Of a stretch of DNA of 64,000 nt, positions 2,598-40,800 are shown one piece after another; position 1 is the first letter of the stretch, and every line of letters begins with the position of its first letter. The translations under genes were made by a program, and so were the position numbers. Where the stretch lies: the sequence record OR670491. One strand, 5' to 3'. The notes under the pieces are model-generated. The model saw nothing but the letters and a program-made list of their open reading frames with translations, was not told where the DNA came from and ran no database searches. The DNA comes from Escherichia phage vB_EcoM_JNE01.

Positions 2598-3105
2598 GTG
2601 CACTAAGGTAATCTTGAAGATTGCTGAAATTTTCAGTACTTTATTGAGCGATGGAAAGATTACAGATGATCTGGTTCTTCCATACCCGTGGAAATTTTCT
2701 AAATTTTCTATATTTTATAAATTAGAATACAAAGAACATGCAGTACTGGAGTTTAATCCTAAAGCTGATTTCATTGAGAATAGTACACTGTTCGGAAAGA
2801 GTGGGTGCTATACATCGGACTTCAAAAAGATTACTACGCATATTCGTCCTTCTCCAGAAGAAAACGAGTTCCATTCATTTCTGTATCCTGAATTTAAGTT
2901 AACTGAAGAACTACTATTTCAGTACTCATTATTGTTCGAAGATGTACAAGATTTAGAGTTCTATAAAGAGTTAGTAGAAACTTTTAAGAATGTGAACCTT
3001 AAAAAAGATATTCTTATATTCTGGTTCATGGAGTATATTTCGAAGGATTTGCTAGATGAGTTTCTTCTAAATATGACAGCAATTAAGGAGAAGTTATATG
3101 CTTGA
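2572..3105 (+). CDS. hypothetical protein (177 aa)
   Basis: Long ORF. Confidence 0.5.
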   Translation: MQSMKDNLECTKVILKIAEIFSTLLSDGKITDDLVLPYPWKFSKFSIFYKLEYKEHAVLEFNPKADFIENSTLFGKSGCYTSDFKKITTHIRPSPEENEFHSFLYPEFKLTEELLFQYSLLFEDVQDLEFYKELVETFKNVNLKKDILIFWFMEYISKDLLDEFLLNMTAIKEKLYA

Positions 3106-3977: not shown

Positions 3978-4452
3978 TTTAGAAAAAATTGCTGATTATC
4001 TTCGTACTAACAATATGGAACATAGTCTTTCGATTACAAGTGACCATATCCAATGTAGTACTAATGATTATACTGTACTGTTCGGGTTTCATAGCCTACG
4101 TTTGTCAGTAGTAAATAATCATGATGATACAGCAATTGTCATTACACCTTGTGATGTACTGAACAATGATGGTGAAGTACTTCACAAGAAACAAACCGTA
4201 TTCCATATCTTCAGGGGTGATGAGCCACAAGCATTGGAATACGATACACTGAACGTTGATAGTGGTGAATTGTTCCAGTTGGGTTTAGTACATGATTGTA
4301 CTTTCATGGATAACCGAGTAATTCTTCCTTTGTTGTTGAATATTCTGGTTAACCTTACAACATCTTCAATCCGACACTTCAACGATTCTATTTTAGTACA
4401 GGCGATGATAAACGTTTCAGAGGCAATCGAGGAATACAAAGTCGCCAGTTAA
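3943..4452 (+). CDS. hypothetical protein (169 aa)
   Basis: Long ORF. Confidence 0.5.
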   Translation: MNMQVTPRLKLNLEKIADYLRTNNMEHSLSITSDHIQCSTNDYTVLFGFHSLRLSVVNNHDDTAIVITPCDVLNNDGEVLHKKQTVFHIFRGDEPQALEYDTLNVDSGELFQLGLVHDCTFMDNRVILPLLLNILVNLTTSSIRHFNDSILVQAMINVSEAIEEYKVAS

Positions 4453-4492
4453 CCAATGCACAGGGAGTGCGATAAAGGATCAAGGATAGATC

Positions 4493-4966
4493 ATGGAGAC
4501 GAAAACTGTTGAGAACGGAAAGATAGATGACATTTTAGAATTGGACGCATTTAAAGTTCATGATATAATGTTCAATGTTAAAGACATTATTCAGTGTCTT
4601 TTCTTATGTAGCAAAACTATGCATGACTACTTTCACAACCCAAATACTAACATCTTTATACTTACTATTAGTACTGAAAACTCTTTCATCATGGGTATGC
4701 CTATGAGTACTAATGAAAAGTACATTGATAGTGTAATCCGTAATAATGAGAACATAACCCCACAATCTGAAGTGCATAAGAAGAAAAATACTTATACCAT
4801 TAAAGATGATAAAATTATGTTATGTTGTACTAAGGGATTTATTTTGGATAATTTTAAAGTGAAAGATAGTTATCATGATTTCAAAATATCTGAAAAGCAA
4901 ACTAATGTAGTTTTATATGCCACCGATATTGAAAGCCTAACAGTTAAAGATCCTGATTTGGAGTAA
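4493..4966 (+). CDS. hypothetical protein (157 aa)
   Basis: Long ORF. Confidence 0.5.
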   Translation: METKTVENGKIDDILELDAFKVHDIMFNVKDIIQCLFLCSKTMHDYFHNPNTNIFILTISTENSFIMGMPMSTNEKYIDSVIRNNENITPQSEVHKKKNTYTIKDDKIMLCCTKGFILDNFKVKDSYHDFKISEKQTNVVLYATDIESLTVKDPDLE

Positions 4967-4968
4967 TT

Positions 4969-5100
4969 ATGGCTAAAAATGTAAACAACTTCGTTCAGAA
5001 ACACATGAATGAGTTTAACAAACCTCAAACCCATGTGGATCGCAAAAAAGCGATGAAGAATGGAAAAACAAAACACAAGTCGAGATATATTCTCGACTAA
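4969..5100 (+). CDS. small basic protein (43 aa)
   Basis: ATG 3 nt after upstream stop; lysine-rich MAKNVNNFVQKH...; not in ORF track (<60 aa). Confidence 0.35.
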   Translation: MAKNVNNFVQKHMNEFNKPQTHVDRKKAMKNGKTKHKSRYILD

Positions 5101-5119
5101 TTTTTTGCCTGGAGAAAGT

Positions 5120-5953
5120 ATGAAAGAATTTGATTACAAAAGTAAGTCAGTACTGGAATACATTGAATTACTAAATTCTAAAAATATTCCATTCGATGAT
5201 ACCAAGCTCCTTGGAAATGGAGATGAAAATTCATATAGTACTGAAAACTATGTAATCATTATTTCAAATGCAGCACCAGATATTGACATTACAGTACATA
5301 AGAAAAATAATGCCGCAGTGTTTATGTATACTCAAGATAGTAAATCAGAGTACTTACATTTCAGGGATATGAATTACTACAAAGAGAATGGTGAATTTAT
5401 ATTAAAATACAATATACTAAAGAATATCGAATTAAAAAAAGCACGATACTTTGATGGTGCTTATGACGTTAAAAGTTCAGATAAGCTTTGTATATTCACC
5501 ATGCATAAAAATATAGAAAAAGACAATGGATGGACTGAATTTGAAACTAAGTTCGATGAACAGAAAGTTTCTAATTTGTCAATACAAGAACGTTATGAAG
5601 GTTCAGATGTAGTGTGCAGTGCTGCTTACTTTCGTGCATTTGATAACACAACGAAACGTATGCAAATGCAAAACATTGACATTACGTTCAATGAAGGGTA
5701 TAGTACTGTTACTATTTCTTCAGGATATCGAAACAAGTTTACATTTGAGGTAGCAGTTCCAGACGGGTCAATTCTACACATATTTGACCCTGAATATATG
5801 TTCCAAGTTGAATTAACACTTGACACAGAGCAGTATGATAAATTACAATTTATTAGAAATTCAATCCAAGAAAAATTGGAATTATACCACTTACTAGGTG
5901 GAAAGAATCACAAAGCAACAATAGCATTACAAAATATCAAAAGTAAAAGGTAG
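5120..5953 (+). CDS. hypothetical protein (~277 aa)
   Basis: ORF; ATG 5120 preceded by GGAGAAAG; track start 5060 overlaps small upstream ORF. Confidence 0.5.
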   Translation: MKEFDYKSKSVLEYIELLNSKNIPFDDTKLLGNGDENSYSTENYVIIISNAAPDIDITVHKKNNAAVFMYTQDSKSEYLHFRDMNYYKENGEFILKYNILKNIELKKARYFDGAYDVKSSDKLCIFTMHKNIEKDNGWTEFETKFDEQKVSNLSIQERYEGSDVVCSAAYFRAFDNTTKRMQMQNIDITFNEGYSTVTISSGYRNKFTFEVAVPDGSILHIFDPEYMFQVELTLDTEQYDKLQFIRNSIQEKLELYHLLGGKNHKATIALQNIKSKR

Positions 5954-5972
5954 TTCAAGGAGAGGATTTAGT

Positions 5973-6266
5973 ATGGATACTAAATTTACAATAAAGTTTC
6001 TAGATGAGCCATGTATTCCATATATTGGTGACAGGTTCAAGCCTTATGGTGCGAAGGAAGTTACGCATCCTGATGGCAAAACAATATATTTGGCCCCAGC
6101 GTCTTATGAGCGAGCAGTTGAAATGCTTATCATGAATTCTAAGTATTGCAAAGACAAATATATTAGTTACTTATACAATGAACATGTGTTAGACTTCAAT
6201 GACGAAAACATGTTTGTACTGGTAGTTTCAGATTTTAGTACTTGGCACGAACATCTGTTGTACTAA
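5973..6266 (+). CDS. hypothetical protein (97 aa)
   Basis: ORF with GGAGAGG upstream. Confidence 0.5.
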   Translation: MDTKFTIKFLDEPCIPYIGDRFKPYGAKEVTHPDGKTIYLAPASYERAVEMLIMNSKYCKDKYISYLYNEHVLDFNDENMFVLVVSDFSTWHEHLLY

Positions 6267-18140: not shown

Positions 18141-19085
18141 ATGCCGACTATTACATTAACAGTTGGTTTGCCAGGATGTGGTAAAACTACATGGGCTGTT
18201 GAAGCAATTCGAAAAGCAAAGTCAAAGACTGTCAATATCAACCGTGATGACATTCGTGAGTCAATGGCTGGTTCACATGATGCATACAAATTCAACGACG
18301 CTAATGAGCAGTACGTAACTACATTACAGTTCAGTGCAGCCGATTTAGCAGCTAAGAATTCGTGGAACATCATCGTTTCTGACACGAACCTTAAACAAGG
18401 TTTTCGTGATAAATGGAAAATGTGGGCTTCAGACAATGGGTACGACTACAAAGAAAAAGACTTCTATCAGGATTTTGAACCTAAAGAAGACCGTGGTGCT
18501 GATGTACATGAATTCTTTAAGATTAAAGAATATGTAAAACTTTGTAAGACTCGTAACCTAAAACGCGAACGTTCAGTACAGGACAGTATCATTGATACTA
18601 TGGCACATACGTACTATTACAGTAAAATGCGTATGTTCAATGCGTATGAGCTTCAGAATTATGACTCATTACCGCATTGTATTATTGTTGATATCGATGG
18701 TACACTAGCTCATAAAGGGGGTCGTAATCCATTCGATGAAAGTACTGTCCTACAGGATACTCCAGACGAGGAAGTAATTCTTTCAGTAATTGCAGAAGCA
18801 CAGTTCTTTAAACGCAAGATTATCGTTATGTCCGGCAGGACTGAAGGGTGCAGAGAAGATACTGAGAAGTGGTTACTGACTTGGGGTGTGCCTTATGATG
18901 AACTATATATGCGAGCAATTGATGATAAACGTCCTGATGATGTAGTTAAGTACGAGTTACTATCTAAACACGTTGCTGGGAAGTACACGGTCAAGAAGGT
19001 TTATGATGACCGTGAGGCAGTAACATTTATGTGGCGTAACCTAGTAGGATTGAAAGTATTCCAAGTCGAACCTGGATTATTTTGA
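18141..19085 (+). CDS. pseT: polynucleotide 5'-kinase/3'-phosphatase (T4 Pnk-like)
   Basis: Walker A GLPGCGKTT, NINRDD, HAD motif IVDIDGTLA; overall pattern like T4 PseT. Confidence 0.85.
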   Translation: MPTITLTVGLPGCGKTTWAVEAIRKAKSKTVNINRDDIRESMAGSHDAYKFNDANEQYVTTLQFSAADLAAKNSWNIIVSDTNLKQGFRDKWKMWASDNGYDYKEKDFYQDFEPKEDRGADVHEFFKIKEYVKLCKTRNLKRERSVQDSIIDTMAHTYYYSKMRMFNAYELQNYDSLPHCIIVDIDGTLAHKGGRNPFDESTVLQDTPDEEVILSVIAEAQFFKRKIIVMSGRTEGCREDTEKWLLTWGVPYDELYMRAIDDKRPDDVVKYELLSKHVAGKYTVKKVYDDREAVTFMWRNLVGLKVFQVEPGLF

Positions 19086-19098
19086 TACAATAAAATAT

Positions 19099-19130
19099 AT
19101 GAGCGGATCATTTGATTCCGCTCATTTTTA
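19099..19130 (+). terminator. rho-independent terminator
   Basis: ATGAGCGGA...TCCGCTCAT stem then TTTT. Confidence 0.65.
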
Positions 19131-19147
19131 TCTAAGGATAAAGTACT

Positions 19148-19405
19148 ATGGATATGTTACAAGTGCAATTAAAACAAAGTACTGACTTGATACTTTCTAT
19201 TATTGAAGATCTAAATCAACAGTACTTAGGAAAACGTGTCATAACTCATACAAAGATTAAAGGGTTTGTTTCGTTAATTTATTTTAATTCATATGAAAAT
19301 AAACTATGCGTTCGAATTAGAACCATAGATGAAGAAACTGGGTATGAGGATGGTGGATTAGCATCTATACCTTTTCAAAATTTAAGGTTATTAGAAGATG
19401 ATTAA
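19148..19405 (+). CDS. hypothetical protein, paralog family B
   Basis: ...EDLNQQYLGKRV...; related to 19398. Confidence 0.5.
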   Translation: MDMLQVQLKQSTDLILSIIEDLNQQYLGKRVITHTKIKGFVSLIYFNSYENKLCVRIRTIDEETGYEDGGLASIPFQNLRLLEDD

Positions 19406-19649
19406 AACAGAATTAGCATTAGTAAAACTGCATGTAGACTACGCAACAGTACTCGTAGAAGATCTATCAAAAAAGTACGTTGGTAAACGTGTGCGTTGCT
19501 ATTATAGTGAATATGATTATAAACATGATTTCCGTGTACAAGAGATTTTTCTGTTCGACGGGGTTATTAATATTCGTGTAATCAATGAACATAACCATAC
19601 CTATACATATGGCCTAAATGCAACTATAGAGGAATTGCCAGATGAATAG
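19398..19649 (+). CDS. hypothetical protein, paralog family B
   Basis: ...EDLSKKYVGKRVR... Confidence 0.5.
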   Translation: MIKTELALVKLHVDYATVLVEDLSKKYVGKRVRCYYSEYDYKHDFRVQEIFLFDGVINIRVINEHNHTYTYGLNATIEELPDE

Positions 19650-19938
19650 TGTTTTGTCAAAATTAAAAGAATTGAATTTCTATACTTACCTGTGGCTTGA
19701 TGAACAGGAACAGGTTGTAAGCAGATCTTATTCCCATATAATGATTGAGTTATCAAAGGATATACTAAAAACAGAAGTAAAAGTATTTTGTCCAGAAGCT
19801 AATATGGGTGGGAAGATTGTTGATTTTACTTTCGCTGGATTTATCAACTATAATTACGAACGTTCACTTGGTATTAAGGTTGAAATTGGGGAAGACGATT
19901 ATTGTACCTTTCAGTTGCCCGATTTGGTGATACAATGA
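19642..19938 (+). CDS. hypothetical protein (98 aa)
   Basis: ORF. Confidence 0.45.
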   Translation: MNSVLSKLKELNFYTYLWLDEQEQVVSRSYSHIMIELSKDILKTEVKVFCPEANMGGKIVDFTFAGFINYNYERSLGIKVEIGEDDYCTFQLPDLVIQ

Positions 19939-20234
19939 ATGAGGAAGATTTAAGAATATTAACCTACTATAGTAATCATTCGATAATTTTATATGAGATG
20001 GTTTATGAATACAAATACAGCGAGTATCCTTTATTTGATTTAGTACTGAATTTTTATAACGAAGTACGTGACAAATATTACGGTAAACCCATTGTAATAT
20101 TAGATGATACATTTTATATAGCAGCAGTGCATGGTTCATTAAATGGTATATTCTTTGATTTGAAATCGGATCTTAAATCAAAACATGTTGATGATAGTTT
20201 GTATATTTCGGAGATACCAAAATGTCAAATTTAA
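19935..20234 (+). CDS. hypothetical protein (~99 aa)
   Basis: ATGA overlap start chosen (track start 19902). Confidence 0.45.
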   Translation: MNEEDLRILTYYSNHSIILYEMVYEYKYSEYPLFDLVLNFYNEVRDKYYGKPIVILDDTFYIAAVHGSLNGIFFDLKSDLKSKHVDDSLYISEIPKCQI

Positions 20235-20548
20235 CAGAAGAAGATTTAAAGTATCTTCTGTACGTAGAAAAATCTACCATATTAATTTCGTCGGTTTGTG
20301 AAGAGTTTGACGATACCAGATGGAAAGGATGTGTGCCAACATACATCTTCGACACTATGGAAATATTGGAAAATAAGTTCTATAATAAATTAGTATATGA
20401 AAAGGAATATCCTAAAGTCAAACTTTATATTAAAGAATGCTTTTTCGCTGGACGCAGTGGTTTTATGTTTGATACAGGACGAAACGAAAAAGAAAAGTAC
20501 ACTTTTACTAGTGTTTATCTTGATGAGATTTTGTTAGCAAAAGATTGA
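20222..20548 (+). CDS. hypothetical protein (108 aa)
   Basis: ORF. Confidence 0.45.
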   Translation: MSNLTEEDLKYLLYVEKSTILISSVCEEFDDTRWKGCVPTYIFDTMEILENKFYNKLVYEKEYPKVKLYIKECFFAGRSGFMFDTGRNEKEKYTFTSVYLDEILLAKD

Positions 20549-20571
20549 CATTGAACTGGAATTGAACTATA

Positions 20572-20886
20572 ATGGACGAACTATTAAAAGAAATACTACA
20601 ATGGGAAAAGGATTTTGTTTTCATCAGTGAACAAAGAAACAATGCACCAAAGAGTGTTCGATCTGCCATTGAGTACTACATTGATGAAATGTGTGAATAC
20701 CTGACTAAAAAGTACTGTCCATTTAGTTCAGGATATTCCACCAACAGTTTTGTAACCAAACGAGATGTAGGTGAAATTCATATTGTAAAACGCATCACAC
20801 CTGGATTTGGTAACTGGTTTGTATTCAATACTGAACAATCTGAATACCTATACATCGAAGATTTAAGAAATATTATCAAAAAATAA
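20572..20886 (+). CDS. hypothetical protein (104 aa)
   Basis: ORF. Confidence 0.45.
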   Translation: MDELLKEILQWEKDFVFISEQRNNAPKSVRSAIEYYIDEMCEYLTKKYCPFSSGYSTNSFVTKRDVGEIHIVKRITPGFGNWFVFNTEQSEYLYIEDLRNIIKK

Positions 20887-20897
20887 GGAGAGTACAT

Positions 20898-21518
20898 ATG
20901 TTAACAACACTAGCAATTATTTGGGTTCTTGGTGTAATCATCACTGCTATGCTTGCATACAATCACAATCGCAATATCATTGGGTATTCTGTACTCGGTG
21001 TAGTACTGTCACCTGTGATTTCAATCGGTGTTCTCCTAATGCTAGGTGAACGCAACCCCAATCTATTCATCAATGACAACCGTGATAAGGTTACACCAGT
21101 ACCAGAAACTGTTATTCCTGAAGAACTAGCACCTGCACCGGAAGTTGTTGAAGTAATAGAAGAAGTCGTGGAACCTGTCAAACCAGTACCGCCAGTATTC
21201 CCTGAAGTGCAGGTTGTTCCTGAAGTTAAAAAGCATAAGTCCAATAAGTCCTCAAAGAAAGCACGATATACTAAAGGCAAGAACAAAGGTAAGAAACCAG
21301 ATACCCAAAGCACTTCCACTTCCACCACAACCACCACCAATACCCCTGATAACGCAGCAGGCATCGCTACAGCAGCCGTAATGACTGCCCTGTACGTTGG
21401 TGACGATTACAGTGATTACACCACTACAACGACGTATAGCTCGTCCTCTGACACTTCTTCATATGACAGTTCCAGTTCATGTGATAGCAGCAGTTCTTCT
21501 TCTGGTAGTTGTGATTAA
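20898..21518 (+). CDS. membrane protein with Pro/Val/Glu-rich linker and Ser/Thr-rich tail
   Basis: Two N-terminal hydrophobic segments; low-complexity PEVVEVIEEVVEPVKPVPP and T/S runs. Confidence 0.5.
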   Translation: MLTTLAIIWVLGVIITAMLAYNHNRNIIGYSVLGVVLSPVISIGVLLMLGERNPNLFINDNRDKVTPVPETVIPEELAPAPEVVEVIEEVVEPVKPVPPVFPEVQVVPEVKKHKSNKSSKKARYTKGKNKGKKPDTQSTSTSTTTTTNTPDNAAGIATAAVMTALYVGDDYSDYTTTTTYSSSSDTSSYDSSSSCDSSSSSSGSCD

Positions 21519-21519
21519 T

Positions 21520-21885
21520 ATGAAAGACCTGAAATACGTTTCAATGTATTACGAGGTACTCACTAATCAAATCCTAGAATACATCGATTCGGTCAGAAAG
21601 GATCTTACGGGTAAAACCGTAAGATTCACCGACGAATACATTGAACAACAGAACAGGGTTGAATCTTATACCTTCATTGATGACGATGGTACAATTTTTG
21701 AAGATGCAGAGGATATCACACATATCAGTACTGATATTAAGATGGAAGTCATTACTATTGTTAGTAAGAACACAACCAGACTATACGCAGTAGTTGAATG
21801 TCTATCATGTCCAGATGACACTGTGTATGATTTTGACCAATACATAGATCTTAAAAATTTAGTACTTATGGGAGTGGAGGAATAA
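21520..21885 (+). CDS. hypothetical protein (~121 aa)
   Basis: ATG just after upstream TAA; track start 21397 is an overlap-frame extension. Confidence 0.5.
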   Translation: MKDLKYVSMYYEVLTNQILEYIDSVRKDLTGKTVRFTDEYIEQQNRVESYTFIDDDGTIFEDAEDITHISTDIKMEVITIVSKNTTRLYAVVECLSCPDDTVYDFDQYIDLKNLVLMGVEE

Positions 21886-21887
21886 TT

Positions 21888-22124
21888 ATGATGACATTTT
21901 TTGGAATTTATGGTTTCGTTGCTATATGTTCATTTGTATGCAACTTTATAGTACTAAATTGGGGTTGTTTCAAAGATGAACTAATCACCATAATTAGTCT
22001 ACAATCCGCAGCACTTATGGCTATTATATGGCCTGTAACATTGGTATATCTTCTTATCTCATTGGTGCGAGATGTAAAAGATAAGTACGTTAAGAACTCT
22101 AAAAAAGGTGAGAAACATGACTAA
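21888..22124 (+). CDS. small membrane protein (78 aa, 2 TM)
   Basis: Hydrophobic segments; GGAGTGGAGG upstream. Confidence 0.5.
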   Translation: MMTFFGIYGFVAICSFVCNFIVLNWGCFKDELITIISLQSAALMAIIWPVTLVYLLISLVRDVKDKYVKNSKKGEKHD

Positions 22125-22374
22125 TGTAGATAAATCTCATATTCGTTATTTGTTTTCTTTAGTTGATGATTTCTTACAAGATATCAAGCCCAAGTACATT
22201 GGGAAAGAAGTCCGTTTGACACATACCAGAGGTTACTATAAACATATCATTGAAGATGTTATTCTTCGTAAGGGTGAGTTGTGCTTTAAAGTTTGCAATT
22301 ACCTTGAAGATGGTACGTATGCTGGTTCTCAAATGGTACATGATGATAAGATTATTTGGATGAATATTGAATGA
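22117..22374 (+). CDS. hypothetical protein, paralog family B
   Basis: ...DDFLQDIKPKYIGKEVR...; ATG 22117 after AAGGTGAG. Confidence 0.5.
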   Translation: MTNVDKSHIRYLFSLVDDFLQDIKPKYIGKEVRLTHTRGYYKHIIEDVILRKGELCFKVCNYLEDGTYAGSQMVHDDKIIWMNIE

Positions 22375-34711: not shown

Positions 34712-34906
34712 ATGATGACATGGGATATTCTTGACATTGTTTTGCAGTTCTTGATGATTTTGATTGCAGTTGTTTGGTACAATCACATTGTTCTGTTATA
34801 TAATGAAGTTCGTAGTACTAAAGCAGATAAACATTTGACGTACCACATTTCAATCATCGTAAGTGCTTCAATTGTTCTTCTAACGAACTATTTGTTTGCA
34901 CGTTGA
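34712..34906 (+). CDS. small membrane protein (64 aa)
   Basis: Two hydrophobic segments. Confidence 0.45.
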   Translation: MMTWDILDIVLQFLMILIAVVWYNHIVLLYNEVRSTKADKHLTYHISIIVSASIVLLTNYLFAR

Positions 34907-34917
34907 AAGGTCAACAT

Positions 34918-35670
34918 ATGTCTACACAATCCTTTTTAGAAAAAGCAGGGGAAAAACGTTTACTGATAATCAGCGGGGCTGGGTTATCGGTTGAAAGTGG
35001 GATGGAGCCATTTCGTTTTGATGATGGCTTATGGGATAACTTTCAAATCAATGACGTGTGTAATATTGCACGTCTTAGTTCCAAATATCATATAGTACAT
35101 GCATTCTATAATACTCTAAGAGTAAAATTAGGTTCGTGTGAACCAAATGCAATGCACTATTACATCAAATCATTAGAGGATCAGTACAAAGATAATTTCT
35201 TACACATGACCTCCAATATGGATGATTTGTACACTCGAATCGGTGGAACCGAGTTGAAGCTTCATGGTAATCTACGAGAAGTTATTAAAAACTACTCAAT
35301 CAATAGTGATGACTATGAAGTAATTGACTGTGGTTATGAACCGTTCATTCCAGAGACTGATGTGTTCTCTAAACCAAATGTTGTTATGATTGGTGAATAT
35401 CATCGTTATGTGGATGGGAACCGTCTTCCTATCTACGAAGAACGAAATGAAGTGTTGCGTAGTCTTACTGAAAATGATACAGTAATTGTTATTGGGAGCA
35501 GTGATACAGTACTGGTATGGTCCAGACTAGCTGGGGCGTTACCTTGTTATAGTGTTACTGTTAACGTCAGAAAGAATGACAATGACTTCCTATTCAATGA
35601 ACGTATCATTAAGCCAGCAACTAAAGCAATTCCAGTACTGGAGCCAATCATTAAGGAAAGAATGAAATGA
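34918..35670 (+). CDS. Sir2-family protein (NAD+-dependent deacylase/ADP-ribosyltransferase/NADase-like), no Zn-ribbon module
   Basis: GAGLSVESGMEPFRFDDGLW, TSNMDDLYTRIGG, KLHGNL, VIVIGSSDTVL match sirtuin motifs; ATG 34918 after GAAAGG. Confidence 0.65.
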   Translation: MSTQSFLEKAGEKRLLIISGAGLSVESGMEPFRFDDGLWDNFQINDVCNIARLSSKYHIVHAFYNTLRVKLGSCEPNAMHYYIKSLEDQYKDNFLHMTSNMDDLYTRIGGTELKLHGNLREVIKNYSINSDDYEVIDCGYEPFIPETDVFSKPNVVMIGEYHRYVDGNRLPIYEERNEVLRSLTENDTVIVIGSSDTVLVWSRLAGALPCYSVTVNVRKNDNDFLFNERIIKPATKAIPVLEPIIKERMK

Positions 35671-36224
35671 GTTTGAGAGAAGTACCACTCGGAGAATTTG
35701 GCAAACAAGCAAACTTTGTATTCTGTTACTTCTTTGCACGAAATTGTAATCCATATGAGAATTACGAGTTGAATGATATTCCAGTAGTTAATCTGGTACT
35801 CCTTCAACTCCGTTGGGATGGGTTGATGGGTGGATGTGGAGGAACAGTTGAAGATTCTGATACTTCACTTGAAGCTGCGTTGAAGCGTGAAATCCAAGAA
35901 GAAATGGATTATAATATTTCCATTGAACAGTTGAAACCTCTAAAGACGTTTGAATTGTTCCCTGGTGCTAACACTCATAGCTTCAGTTATGAAGTCACAT
36001 ATGATGAGTTGAAAGCGATTCGTGACGGGTACAGTACTGCTAAACATGCCAGTGCTGAAGTAGCGGGTGTAAATTTATGTCACATTTCTCGATATTCTAA
36101 GGGAAAAAATCGAGAAGCAGGATATAATAATCTCATGACACAAAACTTCATTGGAACAGCTAAGGAAGAATTGCAGTACTTAGTTGAAAATGAAAACTTA
36201 CTTATCAGTTACTTACAAGGGTAG
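35667..36224 (+). CDS. Nudix-like hydrolase (putative, divergent Nudix box)
   Basis: GGCGGTVEDSDTSLEAALKREIQEEMDY resembles GX5EX7REUXEEXGU with altered spacing. Confidence 0.4.
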   Translation: MSLREVPLGEFGKQANFVFCYFFARNCNPYENYELNDIPVVNLVLLQLRWDGLMGGCGGTVEDSDTSLEAALKREIQEEMDYNISIEQLKPLKTFELFPGANTHSFSYEVTYDELKAIRDGYSTAKHASAEVAGVNLCHISRYSKGKNREAGYNNLMTQNFIGTAKEELQYLVENENLLISYLQG

Positions 36225-36230
36225 AACAAA

Positions 36231-36551
36231 ATGTCATATGAAATGTTCCTCGATGATATTCGTAACCCAGGATACTATTATCCAGGTCGTTCGATGGTTG
36301 TATGTCGTGATTTTAAAAGTGCATGTAAACAAGTTGAAAAATTTGGTATTCCATCATTTATTTCATTCGATCACGATTTGGGCGACATGAATTATGATGA
36401 AAAAACTGGGTATTCCTTCGCTAAATGGATTATTGATTATATGTTTGAGCACGAAATCAAAACACCTTTTGCATTTCATGTTCACAGTAGTAATCCAGTT
36501 GGTAAAGTGAATATCGAACATTACCTTAACAATGCATTCGAAAATTTATGA
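36231..36551 (+). CDS. hypothetical protein (106 aa), conserved acidic motifs
   Basis: FLDDIR and SFDHDLG motifs; no family assigned. Confidence 0.45.
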   Translation: MSYEMFLDDIRNPGYYYPGRSMVVCRDFKSACKQVEKFGIPSFISFDHDLGDMNYDEKTGYSFAKWIIDYMFEHEIKTPFAFHVHSSNPVGKVNIEHYLNNAFENL

Positions 36552-36838
36552 AACAGTTAATTATAAGTGCATTAATAACAATAGCGTTATGTACGGTGTG
36601 TATTCTAATTTTGAATTATATTGACCAAAATTCAAAACAGAATGAACACTTTCAGTCCGCTGTAGTAATTTCATTAGGTCAGTGCAGTAAAAGTGCATGT
36701 TCTTTCACTTACAAAACCGAAGATGGTTATGTAATGTCTGGACTGTCAGAAAAACCAGTATCGATTGGTCAGATTGTTTACCAAAAGTGCTGGGAAACTA
36801 AAGTGCGAGGTCATGCTTGTAGTGATTTCGTGCAATAA
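36548..36838 (+). CDS. secreted/membrane Cys-containing protein (96 aa)
   Basis: N-terminal hydrophobic segment. Confidence 0.45.
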   Translation: MKQLIISALITIALCTVCILILNYIDQNSKQNEHFQSAVVISLGQCSKSACSFTYKTEDGYVMSGLSEKPVSIGQIVYQKCWETKVRGHACSDFVQ

Positions 36839-36888
36839 GTAATCTACCAATCGAGTACAAGGATGTACTCATAACTCAAGGATGTTTT

Positions 36889-38328
36889 ATGAAAAAATAT
36901 ACAATTGACACAAACGTACTACTATCTGATCCAAATGCTACCATTGCTTTTGATGGAGCAGCTATCATTCTACCGTTCACAGTACTTGAAGAATTGGATT
37001 CAATCAAAAGTCGTAATGTGGATGTTTCCCGTGATGCTCGTGTTGCAATCCGTAATATTGAAGCAATCCTTTCTGATGCATCACATGAAGAAATTAGTAG
37101 TACTGGTGTTAATATTGCTGATGTTCATACTAATATGAGTCCTGAAAGCAAATTGTTTGTTATTACAAGCGAAGAAGCTGAAGCACTAATTCGCACTGCT
37201 GGTAACGAAGAGAAAGTTCAAACTCTTCTAAAAAGCACAGTACCAGATGATAAAATCATTTTAGTAGCATTAGCAACTGATTCAGTACTGGTTACCCGTG
37301 ATATCAATATGCGTATCAAGGCTCTAAGCTACGGGGTGGAAGTTCAAGATTACCGTCATGATATCGTGATTGGTGATAGTGATTTGATTCACATTGGTCA
37401 ACATCACCTTGACCTACATTTCTGGGATGTGTATAGTAATCTGACTGATGTATCTATTCAGTCTGAACAAGTTGGTCGTCGTTTGTACCACTACATTCCA
37501 AAAAGCTTGATTGAACATATCATGCCACAAAATATTTGCATCGGTGATTACCTATATGATAATGCTGATGTTCTATTTGTGTACGAAGGCCAATCTGCAA
37601 TTGAAGAAGATGATGGTACTTTAACACCAGAAGATATTCTTGTATTCCAAGATATTGGACAATCTGTTGCTCTACGTGCTAAAGTGTGGGATATTAAGGC
37701 TAAGAATATTCAACAAGCACTAGCAATCAACAGTATCCTAGATCCTGATGTTCATCTAACAGTACTGTTGGGTTCCGCAGGTACTGGTAAAACGCTAATT
37801 ACCATTGCGACTGCACTTGAATTGGTTCTTGAGAAGAAGAAATATGACCGTATTATGTTCTCAAAACCACAAGATTCACAATGGGCCGAAATCGGTTTCT
37901 TACCAGGCACTGAAATGGAAAAAATGCTACCACATTGTGGCCCTGCATTGGATGCTTTGGAATTCTTACATAAAGATGATGCATCACCACAAGGTAGTAT
38001 TGAGGAAATAATCAAGCGTAATGTTATTCAGTTCAAAGCATTGAACTTCATTCGCGGTCGTTCATTTACCAACACTATTCTGGTTGTGGATGAGTTTCAG
38101 AACATCACACCTGCTCAGGCTAAGACAATCCTTACCCGTGCTGGCATGAACTGCAAAGTGATTATTCTTGGGAACTTGGCACAGATTGATAGTAAATTCA
38201 TTAGCCCAGTTAACAGCGGCTTAACATATGTTGTTGAGAAATTTAAAAACTGGGATGGTTGTCGAGTAATCGAACTCGAAGGTGTTGTTCGTTCACCACT
38301 GGCAGAATTTGCTGAAGAAAATATGTAA
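36889..38328 (+). CDS. phoH: PhoH-like ATPase with N-terminal PIN domain
   Basis: PIN-like YTIDTNVLLSD...; Walker A LLGSAGTGKTLITIA; Walker B-like ILVVDEFQN. Confidence 0.8.
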   Translation: MKKYTIDTNVLLSDPNATIAFDGAAIILPFTVLEELDSIKSRNVDVSRDARVAIRNIEAILSDASHEEISSTGVNIADVHTNMSPESKLFVITSEEAEALIRTAGNEEKVQTLLKSTVPDDKIILVALATDSVLVTRDINMRIKALSYGVEVQDYRHDIVIGDSDLIHIGQHHLDLHFWDVYSNLTDVSIQSEQVGRRLYHYIPKSLIEHIMPQNICIGDYLYDNADVLFVYEGQSAIEEDDGTLTPEDILVFQDIGQSVALRAKVWDIKAKNIQQALAINSILDPDVHLTVLLGSAGTGKTLITIATALELVLEKKKYDRIMFSKPQDSQWAEIGFLPGTEMEKMLPHCGPALDALEFLHKDDASPQGSIEEIIKRNVIQFKALNFIRGRSFTNTILVVDEFQNITPAQAKTILTRAGMNCKVIILGNLAQIDSKFISPVNSGLTYVVEKFKNWDGCRVIELEGVVRSPLAEFAEENM

Positions 38329-38337
38329 TAATACGTC

Positions 38338-38363
38338 GGAGTGCTTTTTATAGCACTCCTTCT
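38338..38363 (+). terminator. hairpin, probable terminator
   Basis: GGAGTGC...GCACTCC with T-rich loop/tail. Confidence 0.45.
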
Positions 38364-38374
38364 AAGGAATTATA

Positions 38375-39655
38375 GTGATAATAAAACATCTGTATTATAT
38401 TGACTCAAATTTCAGAAAATACGATAAAGTTTCAAAACTTAATCCAAAATACATTACAGATGTTATTTTCCAAGAAAAATACAACATAGATCGAAACAGT
38501 ACTGAAATACTACAGGATGATATATCATCATATACACCAAACGTAACGGGTTTTTATTATATAAAATACCCAACTGGTGTTAGAAAAGTTTATGCTTTAA
38601 AATGTAATGAGTGCTCTAAAAACTCAGTATTACATGGCGAAGGAATATATCTGGTTCACTTGTCACACATCAAAAACGGAATCATTTCGTGTGGGTGTGC
38701 AAAACGCACAAACTGGACACCATATCAATATTACATAAAAATGATATCAGAATGTAAAAATCGTAATTGCATTTTTTTAGGTTACGATAAAAAACACTTA
38801 CGTTTATATTGTCTCGAACATGGTTACTGGAATACCACATCCAAAGCACACTTCTTTAATGGGAAAGGATGTAGTAAATGTGGGGACACCAATTCAAGAG
38901 TGTTGAGAACAAAAGACAGTTATTTTCATATATCTAAATTTAAAATCTTAAATGCGTATAATTATCGACGTTCCGACAAGATTGATAGTAGTGGTCGCTT
39001 GCGTTATTGGGAATATATGTGTAAGAAATGTTCACATGATGAGTATGTTAGGCTCGGTTTGTGTAATGGGATTTTTACATCATTTAATAGTGATTTAGTA
39101 AAGGGTAAGAAATCATGTCGTTGTTCAAGTAACTATAGATGGACAGAAAAACAGCGTGAATATCAAATCACCAAACTCCTAAAATCCAATTTTCCTCACA
39201 TTAGCTTTAAAGGTTGGGTAAATAGTTATAAAAATATCCATAGTAAGGCGATTTTAAATTGTAATATTCATAATAATTATACGCAAAAAGTAAACTACAT
39301 ACTTAATAATAATTGTGGTTGTCCACAATGTGCTGGGATGACACAGACAGAATGTTATATAAATGTAATATATGATGTGTTTCCAATTGCTATAAAATAT
39401 GGAATTTCAACACATACAAAAAACCGCGTTTGTAGTCAAAATAATAAATCACCATTTGACGTTATTAATCATGGAATTTGGGATTTTGAAAATCCATATT
39501 TATGCAAAATGGCAGAAAATGAATGCAAGCGAACGGTAAGTCGTGTTCTATCAGAACGCGAGCTACCTGACGGATTTACTGAAACCGCTGAAGTGAAATA
39601 TATTGATGATATAATTAAAATATATGAAAGCTGGGGTGGTATCAAACGAAAATAG
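38375..39655 (+). CDS. Cys-rich multi-CxxC protein (426 aa), very AT-rich gene
   Basis: Repeated CxxC/CxC motifs (CNEC, CGC, CSKCGD, CKKCSHDE, CRCSS, CGCPQC); lower GC than flanks. Confidence 0.5.
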   Translation: MIIKHLYYIDSNFRKYDKVSKLNPKYITDVIFQEKYNIDRNSTEILQDDISSYTPNVTGFYYIKYPTGVRKVYALKCNECSKNSVLHGEGIYLVHLSHIKNGIISCGCAKRTNWTPYQYYIKMISECKNRNCIFLGYDKKHLRLYCLEHGYWNTTSKAHFFNGKGCSKCGDTNSRVLRTKDSYFHISKFKILNAYNYRRSDKIDSSGRLRYWEYMCKKCSHDEYVRLGLCNGIFTSFNSDLVKGKKSCRCSSNYRWTEKQREYQITKLLKSNFPHISFKGWVNSYKNIHSKAILNCNIHNNYTQKVNYILNNNCGCPQCAGMTQTECYINVIYDVFPIAIKYGISTHTKNRVCSQNNKSPFDVINHGIWDFENPYLCKMAENECKRTVSRVLSERELPDGFTETAEVKYIDDIIKIYESWGGIKRK

Positions 39656-39726
39656 TAGTTTTTTGTAGACAAAACGAAAAATAGTGATATAATAATGTTA
39701 TTAACAACAAAGAAGGAGAATCAATC

Positions 39727-39924: not shown

Positions 39925-40020
39925 AGCAATAAACTGGAGTTCTTCATAAATACTTTCATAAGAATAATAATACTTTTTATGAAAATTAAAAAGAACTCCA
40001 TGTGTTATTTCAGTTTTTCA

Positions 40021-40046
40021 TCCCTGTCTTTTGGCAGGGATTTTTT
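40021..40046 (+). terminator. rho-independent terminator
   Basis: TCCCTG...CAGGGA stem then TTTTTT. Confidence 0.7.
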
Positions 40047-40065: not shown

Positions 40066-40800
40066 ATGAGCATAACTGATATATCCAATAAAGTTATTAA
40101 TGAATTGGTACAGAGAGGTTTTGCATCACCTATGATATATGGTTCGTGGTGCTACTATGAAAAGTACAAATTCGATGACAAGTATCCTAATGACATTGAT
40201 GTGATTAACATAGTACATGAAGAGTCGGAGGAAGGTGAATTTACTTTGGAGTTGAATTGTATTGACATTCCAGTTAATGTCGAATGCATGACTCTTCAGC
40301 ATTTTAGACAAGATTACAAGACTCCACAAATTAAGTACTTGGGTATAGGTCTTGCAGGTTCCAACAATTCATCAATCAATCACATCTTTTTATATCTAGG
40401 TGCAGTTCACAGTTACTATGCTGAACTTCCCAAAAATGTTGTTCGAACTATGTGCAGTTCATCATCGTCTAAGGCATTTAACAAAGGTGTTAAGAAACTG
40501 ACACTTGACGATGACTACGATAAAGATTTGGGTCTAAAAAACATCTGGCATAGCATTCATTTCATTTCTATAGTAGATTCATATTACAAGTCCTACGATG
40601 ATAGTCTTAATGTTGCAGAATATGCGTTGTATACTGAATATAACATGTTGCGTTGTATCCCGATGCGTGATATGATATATAAAATTTACGAGGAAACTGA
40701 AGGTTCTCTTCAGGATAAGGCTCAAGCAGTCATAGACTATGCAAAGCCTTTACGTAACAAATTAATGACAGAATTTCGTGCCTTATACCCAAAGGAGTGA
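40066..40800 (+). CDS. hypothetical protein (244 aa); possible minimal nucleotidyltransferase motif
   Basis: YGSWCYY...DIDV resembles GS...DxD; weak. Confidence 0.4.
   Translation: MSITDISNKVINELVQRGFASPMIYGSWCYYEKYKFDDKYPNDIDVINIVHEESEEGEFTLELNCIDIPVNVECMTLQHFRQDYKTPQIKYLGIGLAGSNNSSINHIFLYLGAVHSYYAELPKNVVRTMCSSSSSKAFNKGVKKLTLDDDYDKDLGLKNIWHSIHFISIVDSYYKSYDDSLNVAEYALYTEYNMLRCIPMRDMIYKIYEETEGSLQDKAQAVIDYAKPLRNKLMTEFRALYPKE

What the first reader, a model, noticed from the sequence alone, without database searches (positions are those of the whole stretch)
38375..39655. Very AT-rich 426-aa multi-CxxC protein flanked by terminators
The gene is markedly more AT-rich than the adjacent PhoH gene and encodes many CxxC/CxC pairs consistent with several zinc ribbons. 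A hairpin lies upstream (38338-38363) and a strong terminator downstream (40021-40046), with a small basic-protein gene and a long inverted repeat (GGAGTTCTT ... AAGAACTCC, ~39935-39998) between. This looks like an inserted cassette; a homing-endonuclease-like or nucleic-acid-binding role is possible but unsupported.
Basis: partly seen in the sequence, partly recalled or inferred. Interest (0 to 1): 0.4.

Follow-up and report, generated by a model that had tools for sequence, protein, structure and literature searches.

The report
Homing-endonuclease-type gene inserted after phoH
The cysteine-rich gene is a selfish, mobile "homing endonuclease"-type gene (zinc-finger DNA-binding array plus a GIY-YIG/T5orf172-like nuclease domain) that was recently recombined, with the neighbouring phoH gene, into a jumbo E. 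coli phage; it is a clear example of an already described kind.

Summary
ORF 38375-39655 (426 aa, GTG start, SD AAGGA) has 31.3% GC against 35.9% for the window, and 22 Cys.

The window is an Asteriusvirus (121Q/PBECO4-type) jumbo phage. All 35 database relatives lack the gene; about 1.35 kb replaces 23 bp between phoH and a conserved 65-aa gene.

The genome is about 98% identical to phage Turkey5, except for a 2.85-kb patch (phoH plus this gene, about 36850-39710). In that patch phoH is about 80% identical to Turkey5 and 97% to TH47. Two metagenomic contigs carry the same gene with a TH47-type right flank, so they look like the donor type.

Diverged orthologs sit after phoH in more distant jumbo phages. 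pN/pS is 0.15.

The small basic gene, the long inverted repeat and the downstream terminator are backbone, not cassette.

Verdict: a new member of a known kind. Cleavage and homing are inferred, not shown.

The parts
36850..38332 (+). phoH (PIN-PhoH; CDS 36889-38328) together with its RBS region. This is the flanking tract that was exchanged along with the endonuclease gene. It is TH47-like here, in an otherwise Turkey5-like genome.
   Evidence: There are 0 differences from Turkey5 over 36000-36849, then 6-20 differences per 50 bp. TH47 shows the opposite pattern. The left crossover lies inside a conserved stem-loop, GAGTAC-AAGGAT-GTACTC, at about 36848-36870. Pfam gives PIN_4 plus PhoH. The best nucleotide match among phages is TH47 at 96.8%; Turkey5 is only 81.6%.
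38338..38359 (+). Stem-loop between the phoH stop codon and the endonuclease gene (GGAGTGCT-TTTTAT-AGCACTCC). It is a probable attenuator of read-through from phoH.
   Evidence: Folding gives -14.5 kcal/mol, z -3.9. There is no U-tract and the terminator scan does not call it. A hairpin of different sequence occupies the same place in the other HEG-carrying loci: L005, L006 and L009, where L009 has a T-run.
38364..38368 (+). Shine-Dalgarno sequence AAGGA, 6 nt before the GTG start.
   Evidence: Read directly from the sequence. The gene call in Logan contigs L007 and L008 uses the same start.
38375..39655 (+). Free-standing homing-endonuclease-type gene, 426 aa.
   Evidence: PHROG 681 'endonuclease', E 1e-61. 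Pfam CapR, E 3.5e-24. Absent in 35 of 35 relatives. pN/pS is 0.15 against the L007/L008 allele.
38375..38542 (+). N-terminal helical region (residues 1-56), function unknown. It is shared only with the closest subfamily (motif I-T-x-x-I-x-x-E-K-Y).
   Evidence: The AF2 model shows helices 2-6, 11-20, 24-36 and 49-53. Alignment A3. No Pfam hit.
38543..38764 (+). Zinc module 1 (residues 57-130): C77xxC80-25-C106xC108, the CapR-type CxxC...CxC signature.
   Evidence: C80 and C106 invariant; C77 and C108 at least 90% conserved. The signature definition is from PMC8096241.
38765..38914 (+). Zinc module 2 (residues 131-180): C146xxH149...C166xxC169.
38954..39190 (+). Zinc module 3 (residues 194-272): C216xxC219-28-C248xC250. 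This is the best-scoring CapR stretch (residues 204-251).
   Evidence: C216, C219, C248 and C250 are invariant in A3.
39200..39334 (+). Zinc module 4 (residues 276-320): C296xxH299...C316xxC319. It gives a weak DUF723 match.
   Evidence: PF05265, E 0.015, residues 268-320. C296, C316 and C319 are invariant.
39335..39652 (+). C-terminal GIY-YIG / T5orf172-like nuclease domain (residues 321-426). Conserved residues are Y328, K341, G343, R351, E381 and E403.
39666..39693 (+). Sigma-70-type promoter of the conserved 65-aa gene (TAGACA-16-TGnTATAAT). Its -10 part is TH47-like and marks the right end of the exchanged patch; the crossover is at about 39700-39712.
   Evidence: 11 of 12 consensus positions match, with an extended -10. 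Junction alignments. L007 has the TH47-type RBS after this point, whereas the window has the Turkey5-type.

Best explanation
The ORF is a free-standing homing-endonuclease-type gene of the CapR/T5orf172 class.

How it is built. An array of four Cys/His zinc-finger modules ('beads on a string'), perhaps helped by a small N-terminal helical region, is predicted to recognise a long DNA site. The C-terminal GIY-YIG-fold (T5orf172-like) domain is predicted to cut DNA nearby.

How it is proposed to move. During co-infection the enzyme would cut the gene-less allele of a related jumbo phage in or next to phoH. Repair from the gene-carrying genome would then copy the gene and adjacent markers into the recipient.

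What is shown. The domain composition and fold. The gene's absence from all close relatives. A 2.85-kb patch (TH47-like phoH plus this gene) sitting in a Turkey5-like genome. A donor-type allele in metagenomes. Purifying selection on the ORF.

What is inferred. Zinc binding, DNA binding, cleavage, the position of the target site, and that the nuclease, rather than ordinary recombination, drove the exchange. The hairpin between phoH and the gene probably keeps expression low and dependent on read-through; this too is inferred.

Confidence. About 0.9 that the gene belongs to this architectural class and was acquired by recombination. About 0.6 that it is an active homing enzyme that drove its own transfer. 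The single figure given is a compromise between the two.
For: Domains and fold:
- Pfam CapR homology domain, 85.2 bits against a cut-off of 24.2, four stretches.
- PHROG 681 'endonuclease', E 1e-61 over residues 64-424.
- The cysteine signature C77xxC80-25-C106xC108 matches the CxxC-(24-26)-CxC shown to be needed for CapR DNA binding (PMC8096241).
- BFVD matches include 'GIY-YIG domain-containing protein' (E 5e-7) and 'T5 Orf172' proteins (E 4e-5).
- G343, R351, E381 and E403 are invariant across an alignment that includes Pfam-positive T5orf172 proteins.

Mobility:
- The gene is absent from 35 of 35 Asteriusvirus records. The insert of about 1.35 kb replaces 23 bp.
- The window is at a median 98.4% identity to Turkey5, but 74-89% across phoH. 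There it is 96-97% identical to TH47, which elsewhere is only 65-83% identical to the window.
- The right edge of the patch is within about 50 bp of the stop codon.
- Contigs L007 and L008 carry the same gene (98.6-99% nt) with a TH47-type right flank.
- Orthologs lie directly after phoH in three more distant jumbo phages. Paralogous family members lie after DNA ligase in others.
- The family occurs at 715 places in 395 phage records.
- There are 8 synonymous and 5 non-synonymous differences, pN/pS 0.15, binomial P 0.001.

Literature: this class is described as putative HEGs that sit at boundaries of genetic exchange (PMC10448857).
Against: - Nothing here tests cleavage or super-Mendelian inheritance.
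- Both crossovers lie in conserved intergenic regulatory elements.
- The window has other mosaic patches relative to Turkey5 with no such gene (21000-22250 and 58500-60000). Ordinary modular recombination could therefore have produced the patch.
- Ortholog divergence tracks phoH divergence: 58.6/72.6, 56.9/68.1 and 39.5/49.9 % aa. This fits long vertical residence with loss as well as it fits repeated homing.
Confidence: 0.65

Rival explanations
1. It is a domesticated relative of a homing endonuclease. The protein would no longer home, and the phage would use it either as a sequence-specific DNA-binding regulator (as the satellite protein CapR represses a promoter) or as a weapon against competitors, satellites or co-infecting phages (as ICP1 Odn is).
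For: CapR itself is a domesticated member of this family that binds a -35 region (PMC8096241). T5orf172 nucleases retargeted against satellites are described, and the authors state that homing cannot be inferred from sequence alone (PMC10448857). Purifying selection is expected for a useful gene. Orthologs are retained at the same site across distant jumbo phages.
Against: The nuclease-domain residues are all retained, so a pure repressor role is unlikely. Absence from all 35 close relatives argues against an important host-phage function. There is no match to defence or anti-defence models (PADLOC). The gene sits exactly at a recombination boundary.
Confidence: 0.15
2. The gene is a passive passenger. 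The [phoH + ORF] patch was exchanged by ordinary homologous or micro-homology recombination at conserved promoter and stem-loop elements (modular shuffling). The ORF's patchy distribution would then reflect ancestral presence and repeated deletion, not nuclease-driven spread.
For: The crossovers map to a conserved stem-loop upstream of phoH and to the conserved -10/RBS region upstream of orf65. Other mosaic patches exist without such a gene. A second, unrelated indel (the 244-aa ORF) lies 400 bp away. Ortholog identity tracks phoH identity.
Against: The only large indel in 48 kb of alignment with Turkey5 coincides with the strongest and longest divergent patch. The protein belongs to a nuclease family whose members are repeatedly found at such boundaries (PMC10448857). 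The ORF is under purifying selection, not decaying.
Confidence: 0.15
3. It is a non-catalytic multi-zinc-ribbon nucleic-acid-binding protein. On this reading the C-terminal domain is a DNA-binding or structural module and not a nuclease.
For: T5orf172 was long annotated as a 'DNA-binding domain' (BFVD names; PMC8096241). There is no Pfam nuclease hit for this protein.
Against: The fold is GIY-YIG. The Tyr, Arg and Glu positions that are catalytic in GIY-YIG enzymes are invariant across about 30 diverse members. T5orf172 nuclease activity dependent on the conserved Glu has been reported for one member (cited in PMC10448857).
Confidence: 0.05

Closest known systems
CapR-domain / T5orf172 putative homing endonucleases of Vibrio phage ICP1 and relatives (e.g. 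Gp174, Gp165, Gp121; Netter 2021 PMC8096241; Barth, Dunham & Seed 2023 PMC10448857)
   Same: Same architecture: an N-terminal array of CxxC...CxC zinc-finger modules (CapR/DUF723 type) and a C-terminal GIY-YIG-superfamily domain. An ICP1 protein (P0017) aligns at 34% identity over 59% of the query. Like these genes, it is free-standing, sporadically distributed and located at a boundary of genetic exchange.
   Different: The host phage is a roughly 350-kb Asteriusvirus jumbo coliphage. The C-terminal domain belongs to a diverged branch (motifs YIN..K[FY]GI..R..AE.ECK..PDG[YW]TET..IYE..GG; 494 clusters at 50% identity) that mostly falls below the Pfam T5orf172 threshold. It also has an extra N-terminal helical region.
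PLE CapR (satellite-encoded repressor of the ICP1 capsid operon)
   Same: It shares the zinc-finger DNA-binding module that gives the Pfam family its name. The four cysteines of that module are required for DNA binding.
   Different: CapR has lost the nuclease domain and acts as a repressor. The protein here keeps a complete C-terminal domain and has four modules.
Free-standing GIY-YIG homing endonucleases of T4 (Seg proteins) and I-TevI (own knowledge plus PMC10448857)
   Same: Each is a GIY-YIG-fold nuclease joined to separate DNA-binding modules. Each gene sits between conserved genes, is variably present among relatives, and shows co-conversion of flanking markers. I-TevI has a zinc finger in its linker.
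SLX1 / HIGLE structure-specific GIY-YIG nucleases
   Different: Sequence identity is 8-13%. They are eukaryotic repair enzymes with a RING/PHD partner domain and are not mobile elements.

Membership tests
CapR homology domain (Pfam PF21817) zinc-finger modules | Match to the family HMM above the curated cut-off | tested here: met
   85.2 bits against a cut-off of 24.2, E 3.5e-24, four stretches. The closest homologs carry the same precomputed domain.
CapR homology domain (Pfam PF21817) zinc-finger modules | Cysteine signature CxxC-(24-26 aa)-CxC (Netter 2021) | tested here: met
   Module 1 is C77xxC80-25-C106xC108. Module 3 is C216xxC219-28-C248xC250, a slightly longer spacer. These cysteines are invariant or at least 90% conserved in A3.
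CapR homology domain (Pfam PF21817) zinc-finger modules | Zinc-dependent sequence-specific DNA binding | not testable with these tools
   This needs metal analysis and EMSA, with Cys-to-Ser controls.
T5orf172 (PF10544) / MUG113 (PF13455), GIY-YIG clan | This protein matches the family HMM | tested here: not met
   There is no T5orf172, MUG113 or GIY-YIG hit for the 426-aa protein or its C-terminal 122 aa, even at E<=1 to 10.
T5orf172 (PF10544) / MUG113 (PF13455), GIY-YIG clan | Family-level sequence relationship to T5orf172 | tested here: inconclusive
   Of 30 members of the C-terminal family, 13 hit T5orf172 and 16 hit MUG113, but weakly (best E 8e-5 and 4e-4). hhalign against the T5orf172 C-termini of ICP1-like proteins gives E 1.1e-3 over 95 columns, probability 20%. 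Full-length homologs P0014, P0022 and P0023 carry PF10544.
T5orf172 (PF10544) / MUG113 (PF13455), GIY-YIG clan | GIY-YIG fold (three-stranded sheet flanked by helices) | tested here: met
T5orf172 (PF10544) / MUG113 (PF13455), GIY-YIG clan | Conserved Tyr (strand 1), K-x-G (strand 2), Arg (helix 1) and Glu residues | tested here: met
   Y328, K341, G343, R351, E381 and E403 are invariant or nearly so in A3 and A4. G343, R351, E381 and E403 are also invariant across the Pfam-positive T5orf172 members in A3. Their equivalence to the catalytic residues of GIY-YIG enzymes is inferred from motif order and spacing.
T5orf172 (PF10544) / MUG113 (PF13455), GIY-YIG clan | Metal-dependent DNA cleavage | not testable with these tools
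   Requires biochemistry.
Free-standing homing endonuclease gene (behavioural definition) | Presence/absence polymorphism at a fixed intergenic site among close relatives | tested here: met
   Absent in 35 of 35 Asteriusvirus records. Present at the same site in L007 and L008 and, as diverged orthologs, in L005, L006 and L009.
Free-standing homing endonuclease gene (behavioural definition) | Flanking-marker co-conversion or a recombination boundary at the gene | tested here: met
   A patch at about 36850-39710 has TH47-like phoH in a Turkey5-like genome. The finding is consistent with ordinary recombination as well as with homing.
Free-standing homing endonuclease gene (behavioural definition) | Site-specific cleavage of the gene-less allele and biased inheritance in crosses | not testable with these tools
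   Requires in vitro cleavage mapping and phage crosses.

The most novel reading that the evidence does not exclude
The C-terminal domain may define a distinct, currently unmodelled branch of the GIY-YIG/T5orf172 superfamily: about 500 clusters at 50% identity, hallmark PDG[YW]TET...IYE..GG, always C-terminal to zinc-ribbon arrays. This particular lineage may be a site-specific homing system dedicated to the phoH 3' flank across Rak2-like jumbo phages (Asteriusvirus, Alcyoneusvirus and unclassified relatives), converting the whole phoH gene as it moves. With donor-like (L007), recipient-like (Turkey5) and product (this window) genomes all identified, it would be a ready natural system for demonstrating homing by a CapR/T5orf172 enzyme. 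In the two papers read here, such homing is inferred only bioinformatically.
Probability: 0.2. Interest if true: 0.45.

Novelty: new member of a known kind. Interest (0 to 1): 0.3.

Why it matters
The gene explains a local oddity (AT-rich, cysteine-rich, absent from relatives) as a mobile nuclease gene of a described class, and it shows this class operating in about 350-kb jumbo coliphages.

The practical value is the unusually clean natural record of one exchange event. The backbone is 98-100% identical to Turkey5. The patch is 2.85 kb. The crossovers are resolved to about 10-20 bp. A donor-type allele has been recovered from metagenomes. Together these give concrete substrates and crosses for testing whether CapR/T5orf172 enzymes really home, and where they cut.

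It also matters for annotation. Pfam T5orf172 misses this branch, so such genes are usually labelled 'hypothetical' or only 'CapR homology domain'.

Tried and rejected
- Foldseek of the full-length model against PDB gave nothing significant (best E 0.25). The beads-on-a-string model dilutes domain matches, so I re-modelled the C-terminal domain alone.
- A profile of the C-terminal family against PDB sequences gave no real hit.
- NCBIfam and PADLOC gave no hit for the protein.
- Scans of IMG/VR and JGI metagenomes with peptide patterns from the protein found no relatives.
- tblastn of the protein against the window found no paralog in the 64 kb.
- Target-site duplication. A 17-nt direct repeat (38364-38380 / 39673-39689, 82% identical) brackets the ORF, and its GTG start lies in a copy of the next promoter's TGATATAAT. 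I rejected it as a TSD for four reasons. Homing does not make TSDs. The first codons are conserved as protein in L005 and L006. RCIP0023 lacks the resemblance. Eighteen similar chance repeats occur in the same 1.9 kb.
- Whether the small basic gene, the inverted repeat and the terminator belong to the cassette. Rejected: they align at 86-99.8% with relatives that lack the ORF.
- Whether the upstream hairpin is a canonical terminator. It lacks a U-tract.

Full report
**1. The observation**

An AAGGA Shine-Dalgarno lies 6 nt upstream, and an in-frame stop sits just before that.

- GC is 31.3%, against 38.5% for the adjacent PIN-PhoH gene and 35.9% for the whole window. This is the 1.35th percentile of all 1281-bp windows (mean 35.9%, sd 2.0%). 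The gene is therefore AT-richer, but not extreme: regions near 4.3-6 kb and 19-21 kb are as low.
- It has 22 cysteines (5.2%), the highest fraction among 55 long + strand open frames (median 1.8%).
- The cysteines form four pairs of metal-ligand motifs: C77xxC80...C106xC108, C146xxH149...C166xxC169, C216xxC219...C248xC250 and C296xxH299...C316xxC319.
- The upstream hairpin is real (38338-38359, -14.5 kcal/mol, z -3.9).
- The inverted repeat is real (39935-40000, -21.3 kcal/mol, z -5.1).
- The downstream terminator is real (40020-40041 plus a T-run).
- The hairpin has no U-tract and is not called as a terminator.

**2. What the protein is**

Pfam gives the CapR homology domain (PF21817): 85.2 bits against a cut-off of 24.2, in four stretches, plus a weak DUF723 match. 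PHROGs gives family 681 'endonuclease' at E 1e-61 over residues 64-424.

The CapR domain is a zinc finger with the signature CxxC-(24-26)-CxC, and its four cysteines are required for DNA binding by the satellite repressor CapR (PMC8096241). Arrays of CapR, DUF723 or DUF4397 fingers fused to a T5orf172 domain form the commonest class of putative homing endonucleases in ICP1-like phages (PMC10448857). T5orf172 is a sub-family of the GIY-YIG nucleases.

The last 106 residues give no Pfam hit on their own. An exhaustive HMMER search with them found 494 clusters at E<=1e-3 in 1.84 billion representatives, and the domain is C-terminal in the hits listed.

Four lines of evidence tie this domain to T5orf172/GIY-YIG:
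- Of 30 diverse members, 13 hit T5orf172 and 16 hit MUG113, weakly (best E 8e-5).
- A profile-profile comparison with the T5orf172 C-termini of ICP1-like homologs gives E 1.1e-3 over 95 columns, with the motifs in register.
- In the full-length alignment, G343, R351, E381 and E403 are invariant, including in homologs that carry Pfam T5orf172. Y328 and K341 are nearly invariant in that alignment and invariant in the C-terminal family alignment.
- The fold supports the same assignment, as follows.

Against viral models, the domain matches CapR-domain proteins of RaK2 and of Escherichia phages (E 3e-15 to 5e-10). It also matches a 'homing endonuclease' of the Asteriusvirus phage UB, a 'GIY-YIG domain-containing protein' (E 5e-7) and 'T5 Orf172' proteins (E 4e-5).

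I therefore file the protein in the CapR/T5orf172 architectural class. It belongs to a diverged branch of the nuclease domain that the Pfam model mostly misses.

**3. Is it an insertion?**

The window is an Asteriusvirus (121Q/PBECO4-type) jumbo coliphage. All 35 related records align on both sides of the ORF but lack it.

Against TH47, window positions about 38333-39684 (1.35 kb) replace 23 bp between the phoH stop codon and the -10 element of the next gene's promoter.

The following features all align with relatives that lack the ORF, so they are backbone and not cassette:
- the 65-aa basic gene (100% aa identity in Turkey5);
- the long inverted repeat;
- the terminator at 40020-40041.

The strong promoter at 39666-39693 (TAGACA-16-TGnTATAAT, 11 of 12) serves that small gene.

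**4. A resolved exchange event**

Over 48 kb the window is a median 98.4% identical to phage Turkey5.

- From 36000 to 36849 there is not one difference from Turkey5. From about 36850 there are 6-20 differences per 50 bp through the end of phoH.
- TH47 is only 65-83% identical to the window elsewhere, but has 0-2 differences per 50 bp across phoH. Overall phoH identity is 96.8% to TH47 and 81.6% to Turkey5.
- Immediately right of the ORF (from 39700), identity to Turkey5 returns to 99.8%.
- The left crossover lies in a conserved stem-loop just upstream of the phoH RBS.
- The right crossover lies between the -10 element and the RBS of the 65-aa gene.

The right crossover can be placed because of two Logan contigs (L007 and L008, from ERR11042093 and ERR11042165). 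They carry the same gene at the same site (98.6-99% nt) but continue into a TH47-type RBS, whereas the window continues into the Turkey5-type.

So a TH47-like, gene-carrying phage is the plausible donor, a Turkey5-like phage the recipient, and this window the product. The exchanged patch is 2.85 kb: phoH, the gene and the promoter -10.

Between the window allele and the L007/L008 allele there are 8 synonymous and 5 non-synonymous differences. pN/pS is 0.15 and the binomial P is 0.001. The ORF is therefore under purifying selection and is not decaying.

**5. Wider distribution**

Diverged orthologs sit directly after PIN-PhoH in three more distant jumbo phages:
- two metagenomic contigs (59% and 57% aa identity);
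- Klebsiella phage RCIP0023 (40%).

Their divergence tracks that of phoH. In each case a hairpin of different sequence separates phoH from the gene; in RCIP0023 it is a canonical terminator.

Other family members sit after DNA ligase in KP13-7 and UE-S1. In all, the family occurs at 715 places in 395 phage records. No paralog lies in this window.

**6. Mechanism and rivals**

The best-supported reading is an active or recently active free-standing homing endonuclease. The zinc-finger array would recognise a site in or beside phoH of gene-less relatives. The GIY-YIG-type domain would cut. Recombinational repair during co-infection would then copy the gene together with phoH. The hairpin would limit expression to read-through from phoH.

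Shown here: the domain architecture, the fold, the insertion, the recombination patch, the donor-type allele and the purifying selection.

Inferred: zinc and DNA binding, cleavage, the target, and the causal role of the nuclease.

Three observations weaken the causal step:
- Both crossovers lie in conserved regulatory elements.
- Other mosaic patches exist without such a gene.
- Ortholog divergence tracks phoH.

Passive carriage by ordinary modular recombination, or domestication (as a regulator or an anti-competitor nuclease), therefore remain possible.

**7. Novelty**

This is a new member of a known kind. The class, its repeat architecture and its association with exchange boundaries are already published (PMC8096241, PMC10448857). 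Two things are specific here: the occurrence in Asteriusvirus jumbo phages at the phoH flank, and the unusually clean reconstruction of one exchange. Interest is modest.

Noticed in passing
window 40066-40800 (+): A 244-aa ORF is a second, independent presence/absence polymorphism only about 400 bp from the first. It is present in Turkey5 (99.8% nt) and A4 (about 70%), and absent from TH47, 121Q and most other Asteriusvirus records. It gives no Pfam or PADLOC hit and only a marginal PHROG match.
   Followed up: partly
window 39935-40000: A long AT-rich inverted repeat (15-nt outer arms plus an inner stem) lies between the 65-aa gene and its terminator. It folds at -21.3 kcal/mol (z -5.1). The region is conserved at 86-92% in relatives lacking the endonuclease gene. 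Its function is unknown.
   Followed up: partly
window 36848-36870; L001 about 3050-3080; L002 about 2990-3010: The intergenic regions of these phages combine sigma-70-type promoters with overlapping stem-loops: in Turkey5 and A4 the hairpin spans the -10, and in TH47 and 121Q it sits at the -35. Both crossovers of the exchanged patch fall in such elements. This recalls the promoter-stem-loop cassettes proposed to mediate modular shuffling in T4-type phages (own knowledge).
   Followed up: partly
window 38364-38380 and 39673-39689: The GTG start of the endonuclease gene lies in a near-copy (ATAGTGATA..ATAA) of the extended -10 of the next promoter, so the insert is bracketed by a 17-nt, 82% direct repeat. 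L005 shows a similar resemblance (TATGATAT); RCIP0023 does not. This is probably chance or a relic of the original junction.
   Followed up: partly
window 34903-38328; L005 2080-5954: A conserved gene run of Sir2, Nudix (Nudt16-like), cREC_REC receiver domain, a small membrane protein and PIN-PhoH is preceded by Acb1 in contig L005. This is a cluster with an NAD/cyclic-nucleotide counter-defence flavour.
   Followed up: no
window 21000-22250 and 58500-60000: These are other mosaic patches of reduced identity to Turkey5 (76-92% against a 98.4% median). Turkey5 has an extra roughly 190 bp near window 22115. No endonuclease gene was looked for there.
   Followed up: no
window about 4250-6000 and about 19000-21000: Two other regions are as AT-rich as the endonuclease gene (about 31% GC). 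The ORFs at 4493-4966 and 5060-5953 gave only sub-threshold Pfam matches.
   Followed up: partly
L010 3899-5269 (KP13-7); L011 2935-4005 (UE-S1): Paralogous CapR/GIY-YIG-type genes sit immediately after DNA ligase in an Alcyoneusvirus and in one Asteriusvirus. Turkey5 has no gene at that position. This is a second polymorphic insertion site for the family.
   Followed up: partly
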